NCBI GenBank assembly: GCA_000004985.1
Contig: GG738968.1
DNA from: Naegleria gruberi
Lineage: Eukaryota
DNA length: 43,173 bases
Reading direction: 5' to 3' (one strand)
Shown here: piece after piece, positions 837 through 43,173 of the stretch
How positions within the stretch are numbered: the stretch's first letter is position 1
Layout: each line of letters opens with the position of its first letter
The notes under the pieces: model-generated
Told to the model about the DNA's origin: nothing
What the model saw: only the letters and a program-made list of their open reading frames with translations
The model's database searches: none
Position numbers and translations under genes: made by a program

Positions 837-1250
837 ATGACAAACAACACTCAAACTTCGCCACCACCTGAGGCTGGTTCTCCAGAATCTAATAGACCTT
901 CATCGCCAATGAATTCTTCCACCACTACTTCTTCATATTTAAATGACAATAATTCATCACCACCTTTGGGAGGAGCAACTAATCAAACTAAGAACACGAC
1001 GACTGCATCTTCGCCTCCTATTCATATTCAACAACAGATACATCCTATTGGAAACAAACCAAATGTTTCGTCTAATGTTTCCATTAAGAAAGTAGTAACC
1101 ATTGCATCACCTTCTTCAGTAAACAAACCACCAGCTCAATCACAAGCTGGTATTGTCAATCAGAGCGAAAGTGGTAGATCAGGAGGTTCTTTCAGTCATA
1201 GTAAAATCACCGTACGAACATGTTGTGGTGTGGTTGAGTTGACTCAATAA
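837..1250 (+). CDS. hypothetical low-complexity S/T/P/N-rich protein, 137 aa (MTNNTQTSPPPEAGSPESNRPSSP...SHSKITVRTCCGVVELTQ*), no recognisable domain; may be a 5' exon of a larger gene continuing into the mask
   Basis: ORF-track ORF. ATG in A-rich context (aaaaacaataagaATGac), TAA stop at 1248-1250, 6 bp before the N run begins. Composition is typical of disordered low-complexity protist proteins. No catalytic or structural motif recognised. Confidence 0.45.
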   Translation: MTNNTQTSPPPEAGSPESNRPSSPMNSSTTTSSYLNDNNSSPPLGGATNQTKNTTTASSPPIHIQQQIHPIGNKPNVSSNVSIKKVVTIASPSSVNKPPAQSQAGIVNQSESGRSGGSFSHSKITVRTCCGVVELTQ

Positions 1251-28876: not shown

Positions 28877-30225
28877 GAATATGGTTATATCATTCACTAG
28901 AATAAATGTTTGTAAACTATATAGTTTGATTTCTAGTGATTGGTCATTAATTTTGCAACCAGGTTCATGCTCCTTATGATAAGTTTACTTTCGAATATAT
29001 ACAATTACAAATGAAAATGGAAATAAAAATTCTCAATTAATTTTGATGTTTGTAATTAATGACAGGTTTTGAGATAATGGTGGGCTAGGAACATATCGAA
29101 AATGATTTTCTTGCCGTTTGCCCTCTTGATGTGTTTTGAAGCCAAGCGTCATCTTTTAAATTTCTAAATTGCAACATGGTAATGTTTCTGTTTGACTAAT
29201 TCAAGGTATTTTCCTCCCTTCTTAATTCTCTTTCCATAATTTGAATCGTACAATGAGCCATCTAGATTTTCATGATTTGCAATTGATACAAAGTCGCTAA
29301 TGCTGGGCCCAAATGCAAAACCTAGTTGTCCTATCTACTTTAATGTCCAACATTTTAGAGGATAGAACGTTTTTTCCCACTAGTAATATCACCATCAAGA
29401 GTTCTTCATCAGATATCTCGAAATCCTTTCTTTTCTTCTGGTTTTTTCAATTTTTTTTTAGAGTCACAGATTTTCTTCTCCCTTAATGAATTATTTCACC
29501 AAGCTTCGAAATTTCTTCTCCAAATTGCTCCATTTTTCATTTTGAATCAACCCATGGTTGGATGTCAGTACAGAGTGCCTTAAAAATCACCTTATTGGTA
29601 TTACTTAATTCCATATCAAGCTGGGAAGGCCTTAATTAATGACAAAGGGCGAAAATGAAAGAAAACTTGATAAGGTGTTCTTTGAACAAAACCACATGTT
29701 CAGGAGCAACGCCCAAACTTGTGTAAGCAATCATTTAATCAAGAACCAACACTCTTACTTTGGGGAGTTCAATATTTACTCAAACATTTATGTAATATTT
29801 CAATACCCATCTATATCCCAAATTTCATTCAAAAATAAAGAGTGAGCACTTGGTATCTTCTTGGAAAAGGACTGGGAGCAACCATCTGTCATTGAGCTCA
29901 GAAAGAAATTCATATTTATTTTCAAATGCCACATCAAAGCATCGAAGGAGATTGGCTTCACACATGATTTTAAGCAATTTGGAAATACAAGTAAAGTGCT
30001 TTATTTTGAAACATCACAAAAAATCAAACAACAATCTTTTAATAATTAGCTGAAGATTGAGCCTTTTCAAATAATATCAAGTCTTTATTCAATAATTGCC
30101 AAATCCTTACAATTTTTATCTCACGATCTGGCAAACATTGAAATTGTTAATTAATCATGATCGATTGTTTAATAGATTGATCAAAAAACAGATTGATTAG
30201 ATGGATTTTAATCGATCAACATGGA
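28877..30225. other. about 1.35-kb stretch with no convincing coding capacity (UTR/intergenic or degraded sequence) between two masked blocks
   Basis: Stop codons in all six frames. Only three short (62-68 aa), mutually overlapping ORFs with no recognisable content. Moderate AT content, pyrimidine-rich tract about 29400-29560. No tRNA-like T-arm (GGTTCGANTCC) found. Confidence 0.4.
30158..30220. repeat. short cluster of GATTGAT / ATCGAT-type motifs (tgatcGATTGttt..aGATTGATc..caGATTGATtagATgGATttt..aATCGATcaac)
   Basis: Direct reading: GATTGAT at 30175-30181 and 30191-30197, GATTG at 30163-30167, palindromic ATCGAT at 30211-30216, GATCGA at 30159-30164, all within about 60 bp immediately abutting the second N run. 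Confidence 0.5.
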
Positions 30226-35081: not shown

Positions 35082-35884
35082 GAATTGCATGTTATGAATT
35101 CCGATAATGGAAAGACAAAAGTGACCAAAACTAAAATTGAAATAATTGAGAGAATTAACATGATCAAATTGGTGGTATCATTAATACATGCTTGATTCGG
35201 ATATCTCATCAATGAAGCAATCATATCAGAAGATTCATCAGCATCATTCATCATCATTGTTGAACTACAATTGAGAAAACCAAGCAACACATAAACAAAC
35301 AACAAGGAGAATGGTTTTACAATCAAAGCACAATAAAACGTAAACCATTTCAATTTCTTATAATACTTGTTCTGTTTGTTGGCTAATCGAATTGAAATTA
35401 CATAAAAAACAGCCATAATCAATATAATTGCAATGAAAACAGAACCAATTCCAACAACACCCAAATAAGGAATCATTCTTGCAATCAAAGTCGTTGGAAA
35501 ATTGAAAGCATCAATTAAAATATAACTTCCAACATGTCCCCATTTAAAATCTGAAAGAGTTGTCATGAAAATTAAACACCACATCCAATAAACATTCACA
35601 AATAAAAAGATTGAATAATTTTTCCATCCCTTCTTTGCTTCACAATCTTGTAAAGTGATAATACTATTGGTGAGTAATATCTTTGCCTGATAAGTGATTG
35701 AATTAGTTTCGGTTGTGGTTGTATGAGTGTTGGCACTGTGCAAACTTTCAGAACCGACATGAGATGGTGTTGGTTGAAGCATTGAGGAAGAGAAAGCTAC
35801 ATTGGTATTTTGTTCGAGCAGGTTATTGGAAGAGGAGGATGAACCATTACTTGCATTAGGTACTGCAAGTAAGTCTTCGTTCAT
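35082..35884 (-). CDS. N-terminal part (about 267 codons) of a multi-pass integral membrane protein (at least 5 predicted TM helices after a 95-aa S/T-rich N-terminal region); continues into masked sequence; family not recognised
   Basis: First true ATG of the minus-strand ORF at 35884-35882 in A-rich context (aaaaacaacacaATGaac), giving MNEDLLAVPNASNGSSSSSNN.... Hydrophobic segments: YSIFLFVNVYWMWCLIFMTTL, ILIDAFNFPTTLIARMIPYLG, VVGIGSVFIAIILIMAVFYVISI, FTFYCALIVKPFSLLFVYVLLGFL, LIMLILSIISILVLVTFVFPL. Basic loop KQNKYYKKLKW (positive-inside). A 35-aa loop with 2 Cys and N-x-S/T sites is probably extracellular. The upstream part of the ORF-track ORF (MKAKDIVSHK...) starts at a TTG and is probably 5'UTR. 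Confidence 0.6.
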
Positions 35885-36208
35885 TGTGTTGTTTTTCTTT
35901 TGATTTGATGAAGTGGAAGGAAAGATGCTGAAATCCAAAAAATGCAAGTAAACTCTGAGTTTGTGCGAAACAATGTCTTTAGCTTTCAAATCGAATTTAT
36001 GTTCCGATATGTATTAGAGAAGCTCTTTTGGTAAATTCTATTTCGTGTATGGTATTGTTGTACAGGGATATTTCCTTTTGTATTTGGTCTGCCAACCCAT
36101 CATGAAAACGCAGTTTCATGTTGTACTGTTTGCCCTGATGATGGCGCAAGAGTACATTACAAGACTTCAATGTTGTATTACATTTGAAACGTATTGATGC
36201 AACAAGGT

Positions 36209-36214
36209 TTTATT
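36209..36214 (-). terminator. candidate polyadenylation signal AATAAA for the upstream minus-strand gene
   Basis: Plus strand tttatt at 36209-36214 is AATAAA on the minus strand, 44-49 nt downstream of the TAA stop (36258-36260, minus strand). No other canonical hexamer in the 270-bp spacer. Confidence 0.35.
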
Positions 36215-36257
36215 TTACAAAAAACGTATAATTGTAAAATAGAAATTTATAAATCTC

Positions 36258-36913
36258 TTAAGGTTCTTCAGCGAGTGTTGCGTAATTTCCATTTCCATCA
36301 TTTTGATTTTGTGGAGCGGTTTGTCCTTGTTTCTTCTTGTAAATGTAATATCCAACACCAATGACAATTGCAATAATTATCATCAAAATAAATCCTACAA
36401 GAACAACGATATATGATTTGTCACCCTTTTCTGTGATAATTGTTCCAGCACTACTTGATGTTGGCTTATTGCTTGATGTGCTTGGTTTGTTTGGGGATGG
36501 AGTTGGTTTGTTTGGAGATGGAGTTGGTTGAGGAGTCTTACCACTGCTAGATGTTGGTGGAGTTATTGGTTGAGCAATAAGGGCAAAAGATGAAGGCCAA
36601 TGAGTAGTTGAGCATACAACTGAATAAGTGCTTGCTGTTGCTCCTTGTTGTGAACTCAAAATGGTGGTTGTAACTCTGTCAGTCTTCCAAGAATCAGTGG
36701 TCTTATCGTAATATGCACAAGCAATTCTGGACAAGGCGACACTATGTCTTGCTAATACAGATGTTGGAACGACTATATTGTGCATGTTTAAAAGGATTGG
36801 ATCAGGAAGGTTATTTAATTCTACTCTTTGGTTGTTTCCTTGTTGAGTAATGATGAATGTAACAGCAGGGCTCAATACTTTAGAGTTAACACTTCTAATA
36901 TCAGAAACTGATG
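36258..36913 (-). CDS. C-terminal part (at least 218 codons) of a type-I surface protein: degenerate GPS-like (GAIN subdomain-B-like) motif, Pro/Thr/Ser-rich mucin-like stalk, single TM helix, short cytoplasmic tail; upstream part masked
   Basis: The open frame extends from 36911 (not the TTG 'M' chosen by the ORF track) to TAA at 36258. GPS-like motif about 36579-36719: C53-x9-W63...YSVVC88-STT-H92-W-PSSFAL, i.e. C...W...C-x-x-x-H-(L)-x-x-F-A-L, with one Cys pair retained and the other lost. Stalk PTSSSGKTPQPTPSPNKPTPSPNKPSTSSNKPTSSS. TM helix YIVVLVGFILMIIIAIVIGVGYYIY (36339-36413) followed by a KKK stop-transfer. Tail QGQTAPQNQNDGNGNYATLAEEP* with YATL. Confidence 0.7.
36484..36525. repeat. 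21-bp perfect-register tandem repeat x2 (ggtttgtttggRgatggagtt), encoding the PTPSPNK stalk repeat on the minus strand
   Basis: 36484-36504 ggtttgtttggggatggagtt and 36505-36525 ggtttgtttggagatggagtt differ at one base. They lie inside the P/T/S-rich stalk of the CDS at 36258-36913. Confidence 0.8.
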
Positions 36914-39900
36914 NNNNNNNNNNNNNNNNNNNNNNNNNNNNNNNNNNNNNNNNNNNNNNNNNNNNNNNNNNNNNNNNNNNNNNNNNNNNNNNNNNNNNNN
37001 NNNNNNNNNNNNNNNNNNNNNNNNNNNNNNNNNNNNNNNNNNNNNNNNNNNNNNNNNNNNNNNNNNNNNNNNNNNNNNNNNNNNNNNNNNNNNNNNNNNN
37101 NNNNNNNNNNNNNNNNNNNNNNNNNNNNNNNNNNNNNNNNNNNNNNNNNNNNNNNNNNNNNNNNNNNNNNNNNNNNNNNNNNNNNNNNNNNNNNNNNNNN
37201 NNNNNNNNNNNNNNNNNNNNNNNNNNNNNNNNNNNNNNNNNNNNNNNNNNNNNNNNNNNNNNNNNNNNNNNNNNNNNNNNNNNNNNNNNNNNNNNNNNNN
37301 NNNNNNNNNNNNNNNNNNNNNNNNNNNNNNNNNNNNNNNNNNNNNNNNNNNNNNNNNNNNNNNNNNNNNNNNNNNNNNNNNNNNNNNNNNNNNNNNNNNN
37401 NNNNNNNNNNNNNNNNNNNNNNNNNNNNNNNNNNNNNNNNNNNNNNNNNNNNNNNNNNNNNNNNNNNNNNNNNNNNNNNNNNNNNNNNNNNNNNNNNNNN
37501 NNNNNNNNNNNNNNNNNNNNNNNNNNNNNNNNNNNNNNNNNNNNNNNNNNNNNNNNNNNNNNNNNNNNNNNNNNNNNNNNNNNNNNNNNNNNNNNNNNNN
37601 NNNNNNNNNNNNNNNNNNNNNNNNNNNNNNNNNNNNNNNNNNNNNNNNNNNNNNNNNNNNNNNNNNNNNNNNNNNNNNNNNNNNNNNNNNNNNNNNNNNN
37701 NNNNNNNNNNNNNNNNNNNNNNNNNNNNNNNNNNNNNNNNNNNNNNNNNNNNNNNNNNNNNNNNNNNNNNNNNNNNNNNNNNNNNNNNNNNNNNNNNNNN
37801 NNNNNNNNNNNNNNNNNNNNNNNNNNNNNNNNNNNNNNNNNNNNNNNNNNNNNNNNNNNNNNNNNNNNNNNNNNNNNNNNNNNNNNNNNNNNNNNNNNNN
37901 NNNNNNNNNNNNNNNNNNNNNNNNNNNNNNNNNNNNNNNNNNNNNNNNNNNNNNNNNNNNNNNNNNNNNNNNNNNNNNNNNNNNNNNNNNNNNNNNNNNN
38001 NNNNNNNNNNNNNNNNNNNNNNNNNNNNNNNNNNNNNNNNNNNNNNNNNNNNNNNNNNNNNNNNNNNNNNNNNNNNNNNNNNNNNNNNNNNNNNNNNNNN
38101 NNNNNNNNNNNNNNNNNNNNNNNNNNNNNNNNNNNNNNNNNNNNNNNNNNNNNNNNNNNNNNNNNNNNNNNNNNNNNNNNNNNNNNNNNNNNNNNNNNNN
38201 NNNNNNNNNNNNNNNNNNNNNNNNNNNNNNNNNNNNNNNNNNNNNNNNNNNNNNNNNNNNNNNNNNNNNNNNNNNNNNNNNNNNNNNNNNNNNNNNNNNN
38301 NNNNNNNNNNNNNNNNNNNNNNNNNNNNNNNNNNNNNNNNNNNNNNNNNNNNNNNNNNNNNNNNNNNNNNNNNNNNNNNNNNNNNNNNNNNNNNNNNNNN
38401 NNNNNNNNNNNNNNNNNNNNNNNNNNNNNNNNNNNNNNNNNNNNNNNNNNNNNNNNNNNNNNNNNNNNNNNNNNNNNNNNNNNNNNNNNNNNNNNNNNNN
38501 NNNNNNNNNNNNNNNNNNNNNNNNNNNNNNNNNNNNNNNNNNNNNNNNNNNNNNNNNNNNNNNNNNNNNNNNNNNNNNNNNNNNNNNNNNNNNNNNNNNN
38601 NNNNNNNNNNNNNNNNNNNNNNNNNNNNNNNNNNNNNNNNNNNNNNNNNNNNNNNNNNNNNNNNNNNNNNNNNNNNNNNNNNNNNNNNNNNNNNNNNNNN
38701 NNNNNNNNNNNNNNNNNNNNNNNNNNNNNNNNNNNNNNNNNNNNNNNNNNNNNNNNNNNNNNNNNNNNNNNNNNNNNNNNNNNNNNNNNNNNNNNNNNNN
38801 NNNNNNNNNNNNNNNNNNNNNNNNNNNNNNNNNNNNNNNNNNNNNNNNNNNNNNNNNNNNNNNNNNNNNNNNNNNNNNNNNNNNNNNNNNNNNNNNNNNN
38901 NNNNNNNNNNNNNNNNNNNNNNNNNNNNNNNNNNNNNNNNNNNNNNNNNNNNNNNNNNNNNNNNNNNNNNNNNNNNNNNNNNNNNNNNNNNNNNNNNNNN
39001 NNNNNNNNNNNNNNNNNNNNNNNNNNNNNNNNNNNNNNNNNNNNNNNNNNNNNNNNNNNNNNNNNNNNNNNNNNNNNNNNNNNNNNNNNNNNNNNNNNNN
39101 NNNNNNNNNNNNNNNNNNNNNNNNNNNNNNNNNNNNNNNNNNNNNNNNNNNNNNNNNNNNNNNNNNNNNNNNNNNNNNNNNNNNNNNNNNNNNNNNNNNN
39201 NNNNNNNNNNNNNNNNNNNNNNNNNNNNNNNNNNNNNNNNNNNNNNNNNNNNNNNNNNNNNNNNNNNNNNNNNNNNNNNNNNNNNNNNNNNNNNNNNNNN
39301 NNNNNNNNNNNNNNNNNNNNNNNNNNNNNNNNNNNNNNNNNNNNNNNNNNNNNNNNNNNNNNNNNNNNNNNNNNNNNNNNNNNNNNNNNNNNNNNNNNNN
39401 NNNNNNNNNNNNNNNNNNNNNNNNNNNNNNNNNNNNNNNNNNNNNNNNNNNNNNNNNNNNNNNNNNNNNNNNNNNNNNNNNNNNNNNNNNNNNNNNNNNN
39501 NNNNNNNNNNNNNNNNNNNNNNNNNNNNNNNNNNNNNNNNNNNNNNNNNNNNNNNNNNNNNNNNNNNNNNNNNNNNNNNNNNNNNNNNNNNNNNNNNNNN
39601 NNNNNNNNNNNNNNNNNNNNNNNNNNNNNNNNNNNNNNNNNNNNNNNNNNNNNNNNNNNNNNNNNNNNNNNNNNNNNNNNNNNNNNNNNNNNNNNNNNNN
39701 NNNNNNNNNNNNNNNNNNNNNNNNNNNNNNNNNNNNNNNNNNNNNNNNNNNNNNNNNNNNNNNNNNNNNNNNNNNNNNNNNNNNNNNNNNNNNNNNNNNN
39801 NNNNNNNNNNNNNNNNNNNNNNNNNNNNNNNNNNNNNNNNNNNNNNNNNNNNNNNNNNNNNNNNNNNNNNNNNNNNNNNNNNNNNNNNNNNNNNNNNNNN

Positions 39901-41851
39901 NNNNNNNNNNNNNNNNNNNNNNNNNNNNNNNNNNNNNNNNNNNNNNNNNNNNNNNNNNNNNNNNNNNNNNNNNNNNNNNNNNNNNNNNNNNNNNNNNNNN
40001 NNNNNNNNNNNNNNNNNNNNNNNNNNNNNNNNNNNNNNNNNNNNNNNNNNNNNNNNNNNNNNNNNNNNNNNNNNNNNNNNNNNNNNNNNNNNNNNNNNNN
40101 NNNNNNNNNNNNNNNNNNNNNNNNNNNNNNNNNNNNNNNNNNNNNNNNNNNNNNNNNNNNNNNNNNNNNNNNNNNNNNNNNNNNNNNNNNNNNNNNNNNN
40201 NNNNNNNNNNNNNNNNNNNNNNNNNNNNNNNNNNNNNNNNNNNNNNNNNNNNNNNNNNNNNNNNNNNNNNNNNNNNNNNNNNNNNNNNNNNNNNNNNNNN
40301 NNNNNNNNNNNNNNNNNNNNNNNNNNNNNNNNNNNNNNNNNNNNNNNNNNNNNNNNNNNNNNNNNNNNNNNNNNNNNNNNNNNNNNNNNNNNNNNNNNNN
40401 NNNNNNNNNNNNNNNNNNNNNNNNNNNNNNNNNNNNNNNNNNNNNNNNNNNNNNNNNNNNNNNNNNNNNNNNNNNNNNNNNNNNNNNNNNNNNNNNNNNN
40501 NNNNNNNNNNNNNNNNNNNNNNNNNNNNNNNNNNNNNNNNNNNNNNNNNNNNNNNNNNNNNNNNNNNNNNNNNNNNNNNNNNNNNNNNNNNNNNNNNNNN
40601 NNNNNNNNNNNNNNNNNNNNNNNNNNNNNNNNNNNNNNNNNNNNNNNNNNNNNNNNNNNNNNNNNNNNNNNNNNNNNNNNNNNNNNNNNNNNNNNNNNNN
40701 NNNNNNNNNNNNNNNNNNNNNNNNNNNNNNNNNNNNNNNNNNNNNNNNNNNNNNNNNNNNNNNNNNNNNNNNNNNNNNNNNNNNNNNNNNNNNNNNNNNN
40801 NNNNNNNNNNNNNNNNNNNNNNNNNNNNNNNNNNNNNNNNNNNNNNNNNNNNNNNNNNNNNNNNNNNNNNNNNNNNNNNNNNNNNNNNNNNNNNNNNNNN
40901 NNNNNNNNNNNNNNNNNNNNNNNNNNNNNNNNNNNNNNNNNNNNNNNNNNNNNNNNNNNNNNNNNNNNNNNNNNNNNNNNNNNNNNNNNNNNNNNNNNNN
41001 NNNNNNNNNNNNNNNNNNNNNNNNNNNNNNNNNNNNNNNNNNNNNNNNNNNNNNNNNNNNNNNNNNNNNNNNNNNNNNNNNNNNNNNNNNNNNNNNNNNN
41101 NNNNNNNNNNNNNNNNNNNNNNNNNNNNNNNNNNNNNNNNNNNNNNNNNNNNNNNNNNNNNNNNNNNNNNNNNNNNNNNNNNNNNNNNNNNNNNNNNNNN
41201 NNNNNNNNNNNNNNNNNNNNNNNNNNNNNNNNNNNNNNNNNNNNNNNNNNNNNNNNNNNNNNNNNNNNNNNNNNNNNNNNNNNNNNNNNNNNNNNNNNNN
41301 NNNNNNNNNNNNNNNNNNNNNNNNNNNNNNNNNNNNNNNNNNNNNNNNNNNNNNNNNNNNNNNNNNNNNNNNNNNNNNNNNNNNNNNNNNNNNNNNNNNN
41401 NNNNNNNNNNNNNNNNNNNNNNNNNNNNNNNNNNNNNNNNNNNNNNNNNNNNNNNNNNNNNNNNNNNNNNNNNNNNNNNNNNNNNNNNNNNNNNNNNNNN
41501 NNNNNNNNNNNNNNNNNNNNNNNNNNNNNNNNNNNNNNNNNNNNNNNNNNNNNNNNNNNNNNNNNNNNNNNNNNNNNNNNNNNNNNNNNNNNNNNNNNNN
41601 NNNNNNNNNNNNNNNNNNNNNNNNNNNNNNNNNNNNNNNNNNNNNNNNNNNNNNNNNNNNNNNNNNNNNNNNNNNNNNNNNNNNNNNNNNNNNNNNNNNN
41701 NNNNNNNNNNNNNNNNNNNNNNNNNNNNNNNNNNNNNNNNNNNNNNNNNNNNNNNNNNNNNNNNNNNNNNNNNNNNNNNNNNNNNNNNNNNNNNNNNNNN
41801 NNNNNNNNNNNNNNNNNNNNNNNNNNNNNNNNNNNNNNNNNNNNNNNNNNN
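36914..41851. other. hard-masked region (4,938 N); content undeterminable
   Basis: Run of n. The 1838-aa minus ORF (36872-42388) and the plus ORFs across it are artefacts joined through N. Confidence 1.
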
Positions 41852-42388
41852 ACCAGTCATTAACGAAACTGTGACTGTGTTTGGATTGGTCAACTTGACA
41901 GTATTAGCTGGAAGGCCATCAGTGTTTTCATTAGATGATGAACCTGATGCTGCAACACCAGCAATGGTTGATACAACAGTAGGAATGTTATCGAAAACTT
42001 CTTGTTCAGGATCAACAATAACACCAGTCCAATTATAAGTTAATTTTCTGATTAAATTATTTGCTCTGTCAATAATGATCAAATCTTGAGGTCTTTCATC
42101 TTCTACCAAATTTACAAGAGGTGTAGGAATTGTTCTAGGATAGAATGCAATAGCGTGTGGATGACCGATTGGTGTATCAAGTCCATTATAGCCATCACCA
42201 AGATTACCTCCAGCGATGGTTTCCAATTTGTATGTAGGAGCCAAGTTGTTATCTGAAGATGTTGCATTGATGGTAGTAGTACTAAACAACAACATCATCA
42301 AGAGAAGGCTACTAATAAATAAAGATAATAAATATTCGTGATGAGAAAAAGATTTTACTCTCCCTGCAGAGTCGAAAAACCTCTTCAT
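41852..42388 (-). CDS. N-terminal 179 codons of a secreted/surface protein: signal peptide (or signal anchor) followed by NHL-type beta-propeller repeat(s); probably the 5' end of the same gene whose C-terminus is at 36258-36913
   Basis: ATG at 42388-42386 in context ggcacaaaaATGaag. MKRFFDSAGRVKSFSHHEYLLSLFISSLLLMMLLFSTTTINA has a charged n-region, a 20-aa hydrophobic core and a small-residue cleavage-like site TINA. NHL-like repeat about 42041-42220: LETIAGGNLGDGYNGLDTPIGHPHAIAF...LIIIDRANNLIRKL, matching the IAG..G..DG...P...A / D..N..I.K consensus. A second IAG-x-G-...-DG-LP-A...V start is at 41861-41974. N-x-S/T sequons NAT and NWT suggest an ectodomain. Confidence 0.6.
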
Positions 42389-42716
42389 TTTTGTGCCTTT
42401 TTTTCTTCTTGTCGATTCACTCTACTTGTGCATAAGAGAAGAATGTTTGATGGATGGGAAGTAATTTTGGAAGGGCAAGGGCAGAAAGTATGTTGTTTGA
42501 TGCTAAGAAGTGATCTCCGCATTTTGATTTTGTTGGAGTAAATTTAATTGGCTGATTATTTTTTGTTAGTCTTCTTTTTGTCTTCCATTTACGAGAAGAT
42601 CTTCACGAAAGATTATTTAAAGATAGCATTGTGAATTCAGCAAATTTTTATTTTTTTTAAATTATGAATTGTTTATTCTTGTAACGGTAACTTTTACTGC
42701 CCGCCACGTTTAAAAA
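42389..42716. promoter_or_regulatory. 328-bp divergent intergenic/promoter region between the minus-strand receptor gene (ATG 42388) and the plus-strand AP-endonuclease gene (ATG 42717)
   Basis: No plausible ORF (the 67-aa ORF 42338-42541 is antisense to the receptor start). AT-rich with T-runs (42651-42658) about 60 bp upstream of the APE ATG. Both flanking ATGs are in A-run contexts. Confidence 0.4.
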
Positions 42717-43173
42717 ATGAAAAGAAAGCAAGAAACAAAAAACACCAAGAAATTATCTTCATCATCCAATGAAGGACCAACAAAAAAGTTGAAGCAATCC
42801 AACCTTCTCTCCCTATTCAAGGCACCTTCATCACCTCCAGCCTCATCGCAATCCTCTACTGATACTGACTCATTGACAATAGTAGAGGAGAGTAAAACCT
42901 TCTTGGGCACGAATAATAGCTATGAATTGAACAAGCAATTTAAATTCATCAGCTGGAATGTGAATGGAATATCTGCCGTCTTTAGGAAGGAACCCAATTA
43001 TTTGAAAATGTTGGTAGAGAAGGAAGAACCTACTTGTCTTTGTTTGCAAGAGACTAAGCTTTCTGAAGATGTAAAATTATCGGAAATGGCACAATATAAA
43101 TTCAAGAATTATATTGGACACTTTAACACTTCTAGGGCAAGAAAAGGATACTCTGGTACTGCTTGTTTTGTTC
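42717..43173 (+). CDS. 5' part (152 codons, continues beyond window) of an apurinic/apyrimidinic (AP) endonuclease of the exonuclease III / APE1 family (EEP superfamily) with an about 75-aa Lys/Ser-rich N-terminal extension
   Basis: ATG at 42717 (gtttaaaaaATGaaa), preceded by an in-frame TAA. Translation: MKRKQETKNTKKLSSSSNEGPTKKLKQSNLLSLFKAPSSPPASSQSSTDTDSLTIVEESKTFLGTNNSYELNKQFKFISWNVNGISAVFRKEPNYLKMLVEKEEPTCLCLQETKLSEDVKLSEMAQYKFKNYIGHFNTSRARKGYSGTACFV. FISWNVNGI matches the N-terminal catalytic motif (human APE1 KICSWNVDGL, E. coli Xth SFNINGL). VEKEEPTCLCLQETK matches VKEEAPDILCLQETK in human APE1 (metal-binding Glu) and GLQETK in Xth. KGYSG matches EGYSGVG (APE1). Alignments are from memory of those sequences. 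Not in the ORF track because it has no stop inside the window. Confidence 0.85.
   Translation, partial: MKRKQETKNTKKLSSSSNEGPTKKLKQSNLLSLFKAPSSPPASSQSSTDTDSLTIVEESKTFLGTNNSYELNKQFKFISWNVNGISAVFRKEPNYLKMLVEKEEPTCLCLQETKLSEDVKLSEMAQYKFKNYIGHFNTSRARKGYSGTACFV

What the first reader, a model, noticed from the sequence alone, without database searches (positions are those of the whole stretch)
36258..42388. Surface receptor-like protein with NHL-propeller, degenerate GPS-like motif, mucin stalk and a single-pass anchor
The two readable ends share a strand and fit one large type-I membrane protein. The N-terminus at 41852-42388 has a signal peptide and NHL-type repeat(s). The C-terminus at 36258-36913 has a GPS-like Cys/Trp motif, an O-glycosylation-type P/T/S stalk with tandem repeats, one TM helix and a 26-aa tail. 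GPS/GAIN modules ahead of a single TM helix, rather than a 7TM or polycystin body, are uncommon. In an early-branching eukaryote they bear on the origin of adhesion-GPCR and polycystin autoproteolytic modules. The middle roughly 1,650 codons are masked, so the full architecture cannot be seen.
Basis: partly seen in the sequence, partly recalled or inferred. Interest (0 to 1): 0.55.

Follow-up and report, generated by a model that had tools for sequence, protein, structure and literature searches.

The report
Naegleria surface protein split by gap
These are probably the two ends of one large, only partly sequenced Naegleria gruberi cell-surface protein, with propeller repeats at the front and, next to the membrane, a degenerate module resembling the self-cleaving GAIN/GPS domain of animal adhesion receptors; that resemblance and the one-gene reading are both only tentatively supported.

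Summary
The sequence features are real. On the minus strand there is an N-terminal fragment with a hydrophobic leader and two NHL-type blades. There is also a C-terminal fragment with a conserved Cys/Trp motif, a Pro/Thr/Ser stalk with a 21-nt tandem repeat, one TM helix and a 26-aa tail.

The window is a whole N. gruberi scaffold that is 87% N. The "masked middle" is almost certainly a real assembly gap. The NCBI model XP_002668715 bridges it with a 5,081-nt pseudo-intron whose GT is the last two readable bases. Gap length and reading frames are therefore uninformative.

A metagenomic homologue (P0008) is one continuous gene: signal peptide, about 900 aa of teneurin-type NHL repeats, EGF repeats, the same juxtamembrane module, TM and the same YxxLxEE tail. 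This favours one gene here (about 0.75).

GAIN/GPS membership is tentative:
- Against: no Pfam or PDB sequence hit, and our own AF2 model gives only noise.
- For: hhalign against real GPS motifs gives P = 0.007 in the expected register.
- The canonical HL|T site and two of the four cysteines are missing, so autoproteolysis is unlikely.

Moderately interesting; unresolved until the gap is sequenced.

The parts
41852..42388 (-). N-terminal coding fragment (179 aa). It starts at the first ATG after an in-frame stop and is open to the gap edge.
   Evidence: It is identical to residues 1-178 of XP_002668715 and to residues 1-147 of XP_002676156 from Met32 onwards.
42281..42334 (-). Hydrophobic h-region (YLLSLFISSLLLMMLLFS) of a probable signal peptide. 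A possible cleavage site lies after INA (residue 42).
   Evidence: Kyte-Doolittle window maximum of 2.09 at residues 19-38. The homologue has a classical signal peptide at the same position relative to its first NHL blade. No SignalP-type tool was available.
42035..42220 (-). NHL-type blade 1 (TIAGGNLGDG...DLIIIDRANNLIRKLTY).
   Evidence: Blade HMM built from P0008, domain 1. BLASTP against the P0008 blades, E=0.002.
41852..41974 (-). NHL-type blade 2, cut off by the gap (VSTIAG...TVSLMTG). XP_002676156 shows how it continues: DIYFVENNPTWSIKKID.
   Evidence: With the extension added there is a weak TEN_NHL hit, E=0.046.
36914..41851 (.). Run of 4,938 N: an assembly gap, not a mask. True length and content are unknown. 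By homology it probably holds more NHL blades and EGF-like repeats.
   Evidence: The NCBI gene model splices GT(41853-41852)...AG(36774-36773) across it. The four readable contigs are only 1.2-1.8 kb each, and 86.7% of the scaffold is N.
36261..36911 (-). C-terminal coding fragment (217 aa), open at the gap edge. The stop codon TAA is at 36258-36260.
36573..36872 (-). Juxtamembrane beta-rich module (residues 14-113), homologous to the module between the EGF repeats and the TM helix of P0008.
   Evidence: Smith-Waterman score 132 against shuffles of 29+-4.7, z=21.9, using the ectodomain only. BLASTP E=8e-18.
36573..36719 (-). GPS-like motif CAYYD-x5-W...VVCSTTHWPSSFALIA (residues 65-113). AF2 predicts five beta-strands here, and the last one (SSFALIA) is Stachel-like.
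   Evidence: Invariant Cys and Trp residues. Five predicted strands. hhalign register against real GPS motifs, with empirical P of about 0.004-0.008.
36432..36572 (-). Pro/Thr/Ser-rich mucin-like stalk. It includes the 7-aa repeat PTPSPNK x 2.3 (DNA 36482-36529).
36339..36413 (-). Single transmembrane helix, YIVVLVGFILMIIIAIVIGVGYYIY.
   Evidence: Hydropathy maximum of 3.46. It aligns with the TM helix of P0008.
36261..36338 (-). 26-aa cytoplasmic tail. It begins with KKK and ends in a conserved C-terminal motif, NYATLAEEP (YxxL at 36273-36284).
   Evidence: Tail residues K193, K194, P200, N202, N204, Y210, L213, E215 and E216 are invariant in the homologues.

Best explanation
The two readable ends are the 5' and 3' parts of one gene of Naegleria gruberi NEG-M. 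The gene encodes a large type-I surface glycoprotein, probably 1,400-2,000 aa, and its middle was never sequenced.

Its parts, from the N-terminus:
- A signal peptide takes the protein into the secretory pathway.
- Teneurin-type NHL beta-propeller repeats form the ligand- or substrate-binding head. By homology, EGF-like repeats lie in the unsequenced part.
- A membrane-proximal beta-sandwich resembles subdomain B of the GAIN domain. It ends in a GPS-like five-strand motif.
- A Pro/Thr/Ser stalk, presumably O-glycosylated, lifts the ectodomain off the membrane.
- One TM helix anchors the protein.
- A short tail carries a conserved C-terminal YxxL-x-EE motif. I infer this to be a tyrosine-based (YxxPhi) sorting or endocytosis signal.

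The GPS-like motif keeps the first and third GPS cysteines (the C1-C3 disulphide pair), a Trp and a Stachel-like strand (SSFALIA). It lacks the C2-C4 pair and the canonical His-Leu|Thr triad: this protein has H-W-P-S and the homologue has F-W-L-T. The module is therefore most likely a structural, non-cleaving relic, or a precursor-like form, rather than an active autoprotease.

Shown: the sequence features, homology of both ends to the single-gene homologue, and the gap artefacts.
Inferred: gene unity, the GAIN relationship, glycosylation, the sorting signal, and an adhesion or recognition role.
For: Gene and assembly:
- P0001 (XP_002668715) joins the two fragments across the N run. Its intron GT is the last two readable bases.
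- On another scaffold the same ORF reads straight through that point (GDIYFVENN...). The N run is therefore a real gap, and the ORF continues into it.
- Both fragments are open at the gap edges and lie on the same strand.

Architecture of the homologue:
- P0008 on L002 has a signal peptide followed by the first blade (MSRTKLVIVIFVMVLFLSHVFTQPAVKYRISTLAGGG).
- It also has TEN_NHL 1.9e-34, NHL 3e-13 and EGF_Teneurin 1.7e-16.
- It has the same module, TM helix and tail.
- The C-terminal module occurs only once among N. gruberi proteins in two database searches.

NHL: the blade HMM scores 24.1 bits against at most 8.1 in 2,000 shuffles.

GAIN-like module:
- Foldseek's top six hits are all GAIN domains (E 5e-3 to 8e-2).
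- hhalign against real GPS motifs gives P=0.0071. Column-shuffle controls reached that score in 1/250 and 2/250 trials.
- The five predicted strands match the 'GPS forms five beta-strands' description in PMC3321182.
- The retained Cys pair matches the CL1 C801-C832 disulphide.
- The final strand matches the tethered-agonist consensus TxFAVLM quoted in PMC12716839.
Against: - Gene unity is not demonstrated. The fragments are out of frame if the gap length is taken literally, and no transcript or full-length protein exists in the libraries searched.
- An identical N-terminus is annotated as part of a cyclase on a 401.6-kb scaffold.
- There is no Pfam GPS or GAIN hit for this fragment or for the homologue's module at E<=10.
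- There is no GAIN hit in PDB sequence or profile searches.
- Pairwise Smith-Waterman against the latrophilin GPS is not significant (z -0.5 to 2.2).
- Both AF2 models are low confidence (pLDDT 44 and 48.6).
- The model of this window's own fragment gave only noise in Foldseek.
- HHsuite's own probability is only 5.5%.
- The complete module in the homologue is about 165 aa, whereas GAIN is about 320 aa. It has no helical subdomain A.
Confidence: 0.55

Rival explanations
1. Two different genes. The N-fragment starts an NHL protein that ends inside the gap, or belongs to another locus. The C-fragment is the end of a second gene that starts inside the gap. The scaffold link comes only from mate pairs.
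For: - The frames differ across the N run.
- The scaffold is 87% N and is built from four contigs of 1.2-1.8 kb.
- The same N-terminus, 100% identical over 147 aa, lies on a 401.6-kb scaffold upstream of a cyclase gene. This contig is therefore redundant, and its placement is questionable.
Against: - The gap length is only an estimate, so frame is uninformative.
- The cyclase fusion is topologically impossible as a real protein. It has two blades of an extracellular propeller followed, with no TM helix between them, by a cytosolic TPR_TmcB domain. It therefore looks like another merged gene model.
- The homologue carries both end types in one gene.
- No second N. gruberi protein with the C-terminal module was found that could supply another N-terminus.
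- A type-I C-terminus needs a signal peptide, and the N-fragment provides one at the expected distance and orientation.
Confidence: 0.22
2. One gene, but the juxtamembrane module is a lineage-specific beta-sandwich (Ig-, ZU5- or SEA-like spacer). Its resemblance to GPS is convergent or due to chance, and AlphaFold drew a GAIN-like shape only because of the short motif.
For: - No HMM or profile hit to GPS or GAIN.
- HHsuite probability of 5.5%.
- Low pLDDT in both models.
- This window's own model does not hit GAIN.
- The module is half the size of GAIN.
- The catalytic His is not conserved between the two homologues.
Against: - Two different structure-comparison programs put GAIN domains of six or seven different adhesion GPCRs at the very top, out of 350,000 and 48,000 chains.
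- The hhalign register reproduces every landmark (upstream xPVVFTxxH strand, C1, Trp, C3, His, FAVL strand) with an empirical P of about 0.004-0.008 for a hypothesis fixed in advance.
- The pair of cysteines that is retained is exactly one native disulphide pair.
Confidence: 0.3
3. One gene, with a functional minimal GAIN domain that does autoproteolyse (for example at Pro106|Ser107 here and Leu|Thr in the homologue). The NHL head would stay non-covalently attached and could be shed.
For: - hhalign places Ser107 at the nucleophile (P1') position and His104 at the general-base column.
- The homologue has a canonical Leu|Thr pair.
Against: - There is a one-residue insertion (Trp105) between His and P1.
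- P1 is Pro in this protein.
- His is Phe in the homologue, so neither sequence has the full H-L|S/T triad.
- The C2-C4 disulphide, which holds the scissile turn in CL1 (PMC3321182), is absent.
Confidence: 0.1

Closest known systems
GAIN domain / GPS motif of adhesion GPCRs and polycystin-1-like proteins (Pfam PF01825 GPS, PF16489 GAIN; structures 4DLQ and 4DLO)
   Same: - Membrane-proximal position.
- Five-strand C-terminal motif.
- An upstream 'DP-hydrophobic strand-H' element.
- A first Cys followed by an aromatic residue, and a Trp about 10 residues later.
- A third Cys four residues before a His.
- A final hydrophobic strand [ST]xF[AT][LV][IL][AM], like the tethered agonist TxFAVLM.
- GAIN domains are the top structural matches of the homologue's model.
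   Different: - No Pfam hit.
- About 165 aa in the complete homologue, against about 320 aa for GAIN, with no helical subdomain A.
- Two of the four cysteines are absent.
- No intact His-Leu|Ser/Thr triad.
- It is followed by a 47-aa mucin-like stalk and a single TM helix, not a 7TM or 11TM body. There is therefore no receptor core for a tethered agonist to activate.
Teneurin-type NHL plus EGF ectodomains (Pfam TEN_NHL PF25021, EGF_Teneurin PF23106)
   Same: The homologue P0008 hits TEN_NHL (1.9e-34) and EGF_Teneurin (1.7e-16). This N-fragment matches its blades and gives a weak TEN_NHL hit (E=0.046).
   Different: - Teneurins are type-II proteins in which the EGF repeats come before the NHL domain, and they carry a YD shell and a Tox-GHH domain.
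- This protein is type I. In the homologue the NHL repeats come before the EGF repeats, and no YD or toxin parts were seen.
- The Pfam names only indicate the best-matching repeat subtype.
Pre-holozoan GAIN-containing proteins (Dictyostelium discoideum and Tetrahymena thermophila; Arac et al. 2012, PMC3321182)
   Same: A GAIN/GPS-like module in a protist, outside the holozoan GAIN-7TM context. This fits the view that GAIN predates its linkage to 7TM (PMC12716839).
   Different: Those domains were reported to have conserved GPS motifs and the full GAIN secondary-structure pattern. This one is degenerate and shorter, and it comes from Heterolobosea (Discoba). I found no report of GAIN in that group in the searched literature.
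Mucin-stalked type-I adhesion or endocytic receptors with YxxPhi tails (general class)
   Same: Signal peptide, globular head, PTS stalk, one TM helix, and a short basic-then-acidic tail with YxxL near the C-terminus.
   Different: No experimental data exist. The sorting function of YATL is inferred from the general YxxPhi rule and was not tested.

Membership tests
GAIN domain / GPS motif (PF16489 / PF01825) | Significant match to the Pfam GPS or GAIN HMM | tested here: not met
   There is no hit at E<=10 for the C-fragment or for the P0008 module alone. Full-length P0008 has none at E<=1.
GAIN domain / GPS motif (PF16489 / PF01825) | Subdomain B fold: a twisted beta-sandwich whose last five strands are the GPS | tested here: inconclusive
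- Model of this window's fragment (pLDDT 48.6): five strands are predicted, but there is no GAIN hit.
GAIN domain / GPS motif (PF16489 / PF01825) | Helical subdomain A (about 100 aa, six helices) upstream of subdomain B | tested here: not met
   In the complete homologue only about 165 aa separate the last EGF repeat from the TM helix, and only two or three short helices are predicted there. In this window that region lies in the gap and cannot be tested.
GAIN domain / GPS motif (PF16489 / PF01825) | Four conserved Cys (C1-C3 and C2-C4 disulphides) and two Trp | tested here: not met
   Only the C1 and C3 equivalents (Cys65 and Cys100) and one aligned Trp (Trp75) are present. The C2 and C4 positions are Val80 and Thr102 (disulphide map).
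GAIN domain / GPS motif (PF16489 / PF01825) | Autoproteolysis site His-Leu|Ser/Thr/Cys | tested here: not met
   This protein has H104-W105-P106-S107 and the homologue has F-W-L-T. Neither carries the intact triad. Cleavage itself cannot be tested with these tools.
GAIN domain / GPS motif (PF16489 / PF01825) | Profile-level sequence similarity to GPS in a consistent register | tested here: inconclusive
   hhalign score 19.3, P=0.0071, probability 5.5%, over 59 columns. Shuffle controls reached that score in 1/250 and 2/250 trials. Pairwise Smith-Waterman is not significant.
GAIN domain / GPS motif (PF16489 / PF01825) | Position immediately before the first TM helix of a 7TM (adhesion GPCR) or 11TM (PKD1-like) body | tested here: not met
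   A 47-aa PTS stalk follows, then a single TM helix and a 26-aa tail ending at a stop codon.
NHL repeat beta-propeller (PF01436 / TEN_NHL PF25021) | Match to the NHL or TEN_NHL HMMs | tested here: inconclusive
   - There is no Pfam hit for the 179-aa fragment.
- With the 27-aa continuation taken from XP_002676156, TEN_NHL scores E=0.046 (13.1 bits, against a cutoff of 27.1).
- The homologue P0008 passes both models.
- A blade HMM built from P0008 scores the fragment 24.1 bits, against at most 8.1 in 2,000 shuffles.
NHL repeat beta-propeller (PF01436 / TEN_NHL PF25021) | Five or six tandem blades closing a propeller | not testable with these tools
   Only blade 1 and part of blade 2 are sequenced. 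The rest lies in the gap at 36914-41851.
Type-I single-pass membrane protein | Cleavable N-terminal signal peptide, one TM helix and a cytoplasmic C-terminus in the same polypeptide | tested here: inconclusive
   The leader and the TM helix are each present, and the homologue has both in one gene. Their continuity here is not shown because of the gap. No SignalP or DeepTMHMM tool was available.

The most novel reading that the evidence does not exclude
Heterolobosean amoebae (Discoba) carry a minimal GAIN module that consists of subdomain B only. It has a GPS-like motif with one disulphide and a Stachel-like last strand, and it sits on a single-pass, teneurin-like NHL-EGF surface receptor. If so, the GPS/Stachel fold existed as a juxtamembrane module of simple type-I adhesion proteins close to the root of eukaryotes. 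Only later did it gain subdomain A, efficient autoproteolysis and linkage to 7TM or 11TM bodies.
Probability: 0.35. Interest if true: 0.65.

Novelty: new variant of a known kind. Interest (0 to 1): 0.4.

Why it matters
If the module is truly GAIN-related, GAIN/GPS-like folds extend to Discoba. It would also show them in a new context: a single TM helix behind an NHL/EGF head, without subdomain A. That bears on how the autoproteolytic, tethered-agonist module of adhesion GPCRs and polycystins was assembled. Current work places the GAIN-7TM fusion in stem holozoans and notes that GAIN itself is older (PMC12716839, PMC3321182).

In practice, two RefSeq models need correction:
- XP_002668715 is an artefact that bridges an assembly gap.
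- XP_002676156 is a chimera of this gene's 5' end and a cyclase.

If the module is not GAIN-related, this is an ordinary lineage-specific amoebal surface glycoprotein that happens to be incompletely sequenced.

Tried and rejected
- Word-indexed protein search with the N-fragment returned nothing, not even the identical P0001. The same search with the module alignment returned only P0001 and missed P0004, whose own sequence was in the query. I treat negatives from that tool as unreliable.
- Two JGI metagenome scans with the module alignment gave 157 pattern matches, none confirmed.
- Exact-protein lookups of P0001 and P0002 to fetch their scaffolds found nothing on record. I therefore could not read the 401.6-kb scaffold.
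- phmmer and profile searches of PDB sequences with either fragment or with the module profile gave only noise.
- The AF2 model of this window's own C-fragment gave no informative Foldseek hits.
- Pairwise Smith-Waterman against the verified latrophilin GPS sequences was not significant.
- Literature searches for Naegleria with GAIN, GPS or NHL found no papers.
- Rejected: the C-fragment as an independent small gene starting at Met43. Homology to P0008 extends upstream of Met43 (from Ser14), and such a protein would lack a signal peptide.
- Rejected: the NHL-cyclase fusion (XP_002676156) as a real protein. There is no TM helix between the extracellular blades and the cytosolic TPR domain, and two blades cannot close a propeller.
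- Rejected: the idea that the N runs are masking applied after the fact. The public gene model is spliced exactly at the N-run edge.

Full report
WHAT THE WINDOW IS

Only four stretches of the 43,173-nt window are readable: 1-1256, 28877-30225, 35082-36913 and 41852-43173. The remaining 37,414 nt (86.7%) are N.

The C-terminal fragment matches one database protein at 100% identity. This is P0001 = XP_002668715 / EFC35971 / D2W4N1, 'predicted protein [Naegleria gruberi]', 349 aa, whose contig is 43,173 nt long. The window is therefore a complete small scaffold of the N. gruberi NEG-M assembly.

THE 'MASKED' MIDDLE IS A REAL GAP

P0001 consists of the N-fragment (residues 1-178) joined directly to the C-fragment from 'VVPTS...'. 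Mapping it back gives exon 42388..41854, a 5,081-nt 'intron', and exon 36772..36258. The intron's GT is the last two readable bases before the N run (41853-41852), and its AG is at 36774-36773.

A second N. gruberi protein is P0002 = XP_002676156, on a 401,612-nt scaffold. It is 100% identical to N-fragment residues 32-178. It reads straight through that 'donor' site in frame...SLMTG-DIYFVENNPTWSIKKIDINALLIQTQW.

The gene predictor therefore saw Ns in this scaffold. The N run is an assembly gap whose length (4,938) is a scaffolder's estimate. Two consequences follow:
- The frame mismatch between the two fragments (42388-36911 = 5,477, not divisible by 3) is uninformative.
- The '1,650 masked codons' do not exist as data.

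XP_002668715 is a gap-bridging artefact. It also discards 46 open codons (SVSDIR...MHNI) on the 3' side of the gap.

CHECK OF THE OBSERVATION

N-fragment (41852-42388, minus strand):
- It begins at the first Met after an in-frame stop. It lies downstream of a divergent Exo_endo_phos (AP-endonuclease-like) gene on the plus strand.
- The leader is MKRFFDSAGRVKSFSHHE-YLLSLFISSLLLMMLLFS-TTTINA|TSS, i.e. a basic n-region, a 16-18-residue h-region and a small-residue c-region.

C-fragment (36261-36911; stop at 36258-36260):
- It is open right up to the gap edge.
- It contains Cys65, Trp75, Cys100 and Trp105.
- It has a 47-aa stalk that is 67% Pro/Ser/Thr, with a 21-nt x 2.3 tandem repeat (PTPSPNK).
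- It has a very hydrophobic 25-aa TM helix and a 26-aa tail.

What is not present is any Pfam NHL, GPS or GAIN hit at E<=10.

RELATIVES

An exhaustive phmmer search of 1.84 billion representatives with P0001 found only seven proteins at E<=1e-3. Besides P0001 itself and P0002, the informative hit is P0004 (455 aa, ENA metagenome). Its 90% cluster also holds P0008 (1,315 aa, on a 10-kb contig, L002).

P0008 has these features:
- It hits TEN_NHL (1.9e-34, six stretches), NHL (3e-13), EGF_Teneurin (1.7e-16) and EGF_2.
- About 165 aa then separate the EGF repeats from a TM helix and a short tail.
- Just upstream of the called ORF, in a frame offset by one base, L002 encodes MSRTKLVIVIFVMVLFLSHVFTQPAVKYRISTLAGGGDF. 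This is a classical signal peptide running straight into the first NHL blade. Our sequence at the same place reads ...NLAPTYKLETIAGGNLGDG.

The C-fragment aligns to P0008 residues 1158-1314 with E=8e-18. Using the ectodomain part alone, the Smith-Waterman score is 132 against 29+-4.7 for shuffles, z=21.9. Invariant positions include both Cys, both Trp and the block S-V-x-C-S-T-x-x-W-x-x-S-F-x-L-I-A. In the tail they include KK...P.N.N...Y-x-x-L-x-E-E.

The N-fragment aligns to P0008 blades in register (E=0.002). An HMM of 13 P0008 blades scores it 24.1 bits, or 30.2 bits with the P0002 continuation. The best of 2,000 shuffles scored 8.1. With the continuation added, Pfam gives a sub-threshold TEN_NHL hit (E=0.046).

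ONE GENE OR TWO?

In favour of one gene:
- The fragments are on the same strand, and both ORFs are open at the gap edges.
- The mate-pair distance of about 4.9 kb suits a protein of this family. The P0008 gene is about 4.1 kb.
- Both ends are homologous to the two ends of a single-gene homologue.
- No other N. gruberi protein carries the C-terminal module. A type-I C-terminus still needs a signal peptide from somewhere.

Against:
- Continuity is not shown.
- The N-terminal contig is duplicated in the assembly. On the large scaffold it is modelled as the first 175 aa of an adenylate/guanylate cyclase.

That cyclase model is itself implausible. It places two blades of an extracellular propeller directly in front of a cytosolic TPR_TmcB domain with no TM helix between them. 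The junction '...IQTQW|LDSNNCVFS-MSLLKRASS' looks like a splice into the cyclase's 5' end. I estimate about 0.75 for one gene.

IS THE MODULE GPS/GAIN-LIKE?

Negative evidence:
- No Pfam GPS or GAIN hit for the fragment or for the homologue's module.
- No GAIN chain in phmmer or profile searches of PDB sequences.
- Pairwise scores against the verified CL1 and ADGRL3 GPS sequences are not significant.
- AF2 with a three-sequence alignment is low confidence for both targets (pLDDT 44 and 48.6).
- The model of this window's own fragment yields only noise in Foldseek.

Positive evidence from structure comparison. The model of the homologue's complete module was compared with the PDB by two programs.
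- Foldseek's top six hits are all GAIN domains: BAI3 4DLO (E=5e-3), CD97, GPR97, BAI2 and GPR110.
- GAIN chains are a tiny fraction of those libraries, so the model is GAIN-like beyond chance. What remains uncertain is whether the model is right.

Positive evidence from profiles. I collected six real GPS sequences from PDB alignments and aligned them (A4). I then ran hhalign against the module alignment (A3).
- The score is 19.3, P=0.0071, over 59 columns.
- Column-shuffled controls (mean 10.2, sd 2.3) reached that score in 1/250 and 2/250 trials.
- HHsuite's calibrated probability is only 5.5%.

The register is the one expected from the motif:

| This protein | GPS reference |
|---|---|
| NLPDPILL | YLADPVVF (the strand before the GPS) |
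| Cys65 | C1 |
| Trp75 | the conserved Trp |
| Val80 | C2 |
| Cys100 | C3 |
| Thr102 | C4 |
| His104 | His |
| Trp105 | one-residue insertion |
| Pro106 | Leu (P1) |
| Ser107 | Thr (P1') |
| SFALI | NFAVL |

In CL1 the disulphides are C801-C832 and C820-C834 (PMC3321182). The protein therefore keeps exactly one native pair (C1-C3) and has lost the other pair together. AF2 predicts five strands across the motif (residues 63-69, 74-76, 81-86, 95-101 and 108-113). This matches the five-strand GPS described in that paper. The last strand, SSFALIA (TSFTLIA in P0008), resembles the tethered-agonist consensus TxFAVLM (PMC12716839).

Overall I put about 0.65-0.7 on a genuine relationship to GAIN subdomain B. 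It is not a canonical member, for these reasons:
- Subdomain A is absent in the complete homologue.
- Two of the four cysteines are missing.
- Neither homologue has an intact H-L|S/T triad (H-W-P-S here, F-W-L-T there).
- The module is followed by a mucin-like stalk and a single TM helix.

Autoproteolysis is therefore unlikely (about 0.1-0.15).

HOW IT PROBABLY WORKS (INFERENCE)

This is a large secreted-pathway type-I glycoprotein. Its NHL propeller(s), and probably EGF repeats, bind a ligand such as substrate, prey surface or another cell. The GAIN-B-like sandwich and the O-glycosylated PTS stalk act as a rigid spacer. The short tail (KKK...NYATLAEEP) carries a YxxPhi-type motif that is conserved to the C-terminus in the homologues. 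This suggests adaptor-mediated sorting or endocytosis, as in phagocytic or adhesion receptors. None of this was tested.

LITERATURE CONTEXT

GAIN domains were reported in Dictyostelium and Tetrahymena (PMC3321182). The GAIN-7TM module is thought to have arisen in stem holozoans, with GAIN itself being older (PMC12716839). I found no paper linking Naegleria with GAIN, GPS or NHL. PMC9928731 lists the NEG-M assembly as 40.9 Mb with 35% GC, which is compatible with the roughly 33-35% GC of the readable blocks.

VERDICT

- Observation: partly confirmed.
- Interpretation: partly supported.
- The most solid new facts are the assembly gap, the two faulty RefSeq models, and the existence of a single-gene homologue with the predicted architecture.
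- The GAIN/GPS relationship is plausible but rests on low-confidence models and a modest profile score.
- Interest is moderate (0.4).
- Novelty: a new variant of a known kind, if the GAIN relationship holds.

Noticed in passing
window 36772-41854 (minus strand): RefSeq protein XP_002668715 (NAEGRDRAFT_82325, 349 aa) is a gap-bridging gene model. Its single 5,081-nt intron consists almost entirely of the N run, and its GT donor is the last two bases before the gap. The model also drops 46 open codons next to the gap.
   Followed up: yes
window 41852-42295, versus P0002 (XP_002676156) on a 401,612-nt N. gruberi scaffold: The N-terminal 147 aa (from Met32) are 100% identical to the start of an annotated adenylate/guanylate cyclase on another scaffold. 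This small scaffold is therefore at least partly redundant (an unplaced or haplotype copy). The cyclase model looks like a chimera of two genes.
   Followed up: partly
window 42714-43172 (+): The start of a divergently transcribed gene with an Exo_endo_phos (AP-endonuclease / ExoIII-like) domain (Pfam E=2e-5). It runs off the end of the scaffold. About 325 nt of shared upstream region separate it from the ATG at 42388.
   Followed up: partly
window 35084-35884 (-): The next gene downstream on the same strand starts at ATG 35884 (MNEDLLAVPN...). It encodes a Ser/Thr/Asn-rich N-terminus followed by several hydrophobic helices, then runs into the next gap. It has no Pfam hit.
   Followed up: partly
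window 837-1247 (+): An ORF of 137 aa rich in Ser/Thr/Pro/Asn (MTNNTQTSPPPEAGSPESN...), open almost to the edge of the 27.6-kb gap. It has no Pfam hit. It may be a low-complexity N-terminus of another gene.
   Followed up: no
L002 3987-4140: In the metagenomic homologue, the signal-peptide and first-blade coding stretch is one base out of frame with the 1,315-aa ORF (near ...agtgtgggtgggatacgt...). This is probably an assembly indel, or possibly a very short intron. The automatic gene call therefore misses the signal peptide.
   Followed up: partly
L002 1037-1804 and 8115-9047: The contig carrying the homologue also encodes a G-alpha subunit and a Tyr/Ser-Thr-type protein kinase, and it has 39% GC. 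It therefore comes from a eukaryote, presumably an amoeba-like protist. The organism was not identified.
   Followed up: no
tool behaviour: The word-indexed homology search failed to return proteins that contain the query verbatim. P0001 was missed for the N-fragment, and P0004 was missed for the alignment that included it.
   Followed up: partly
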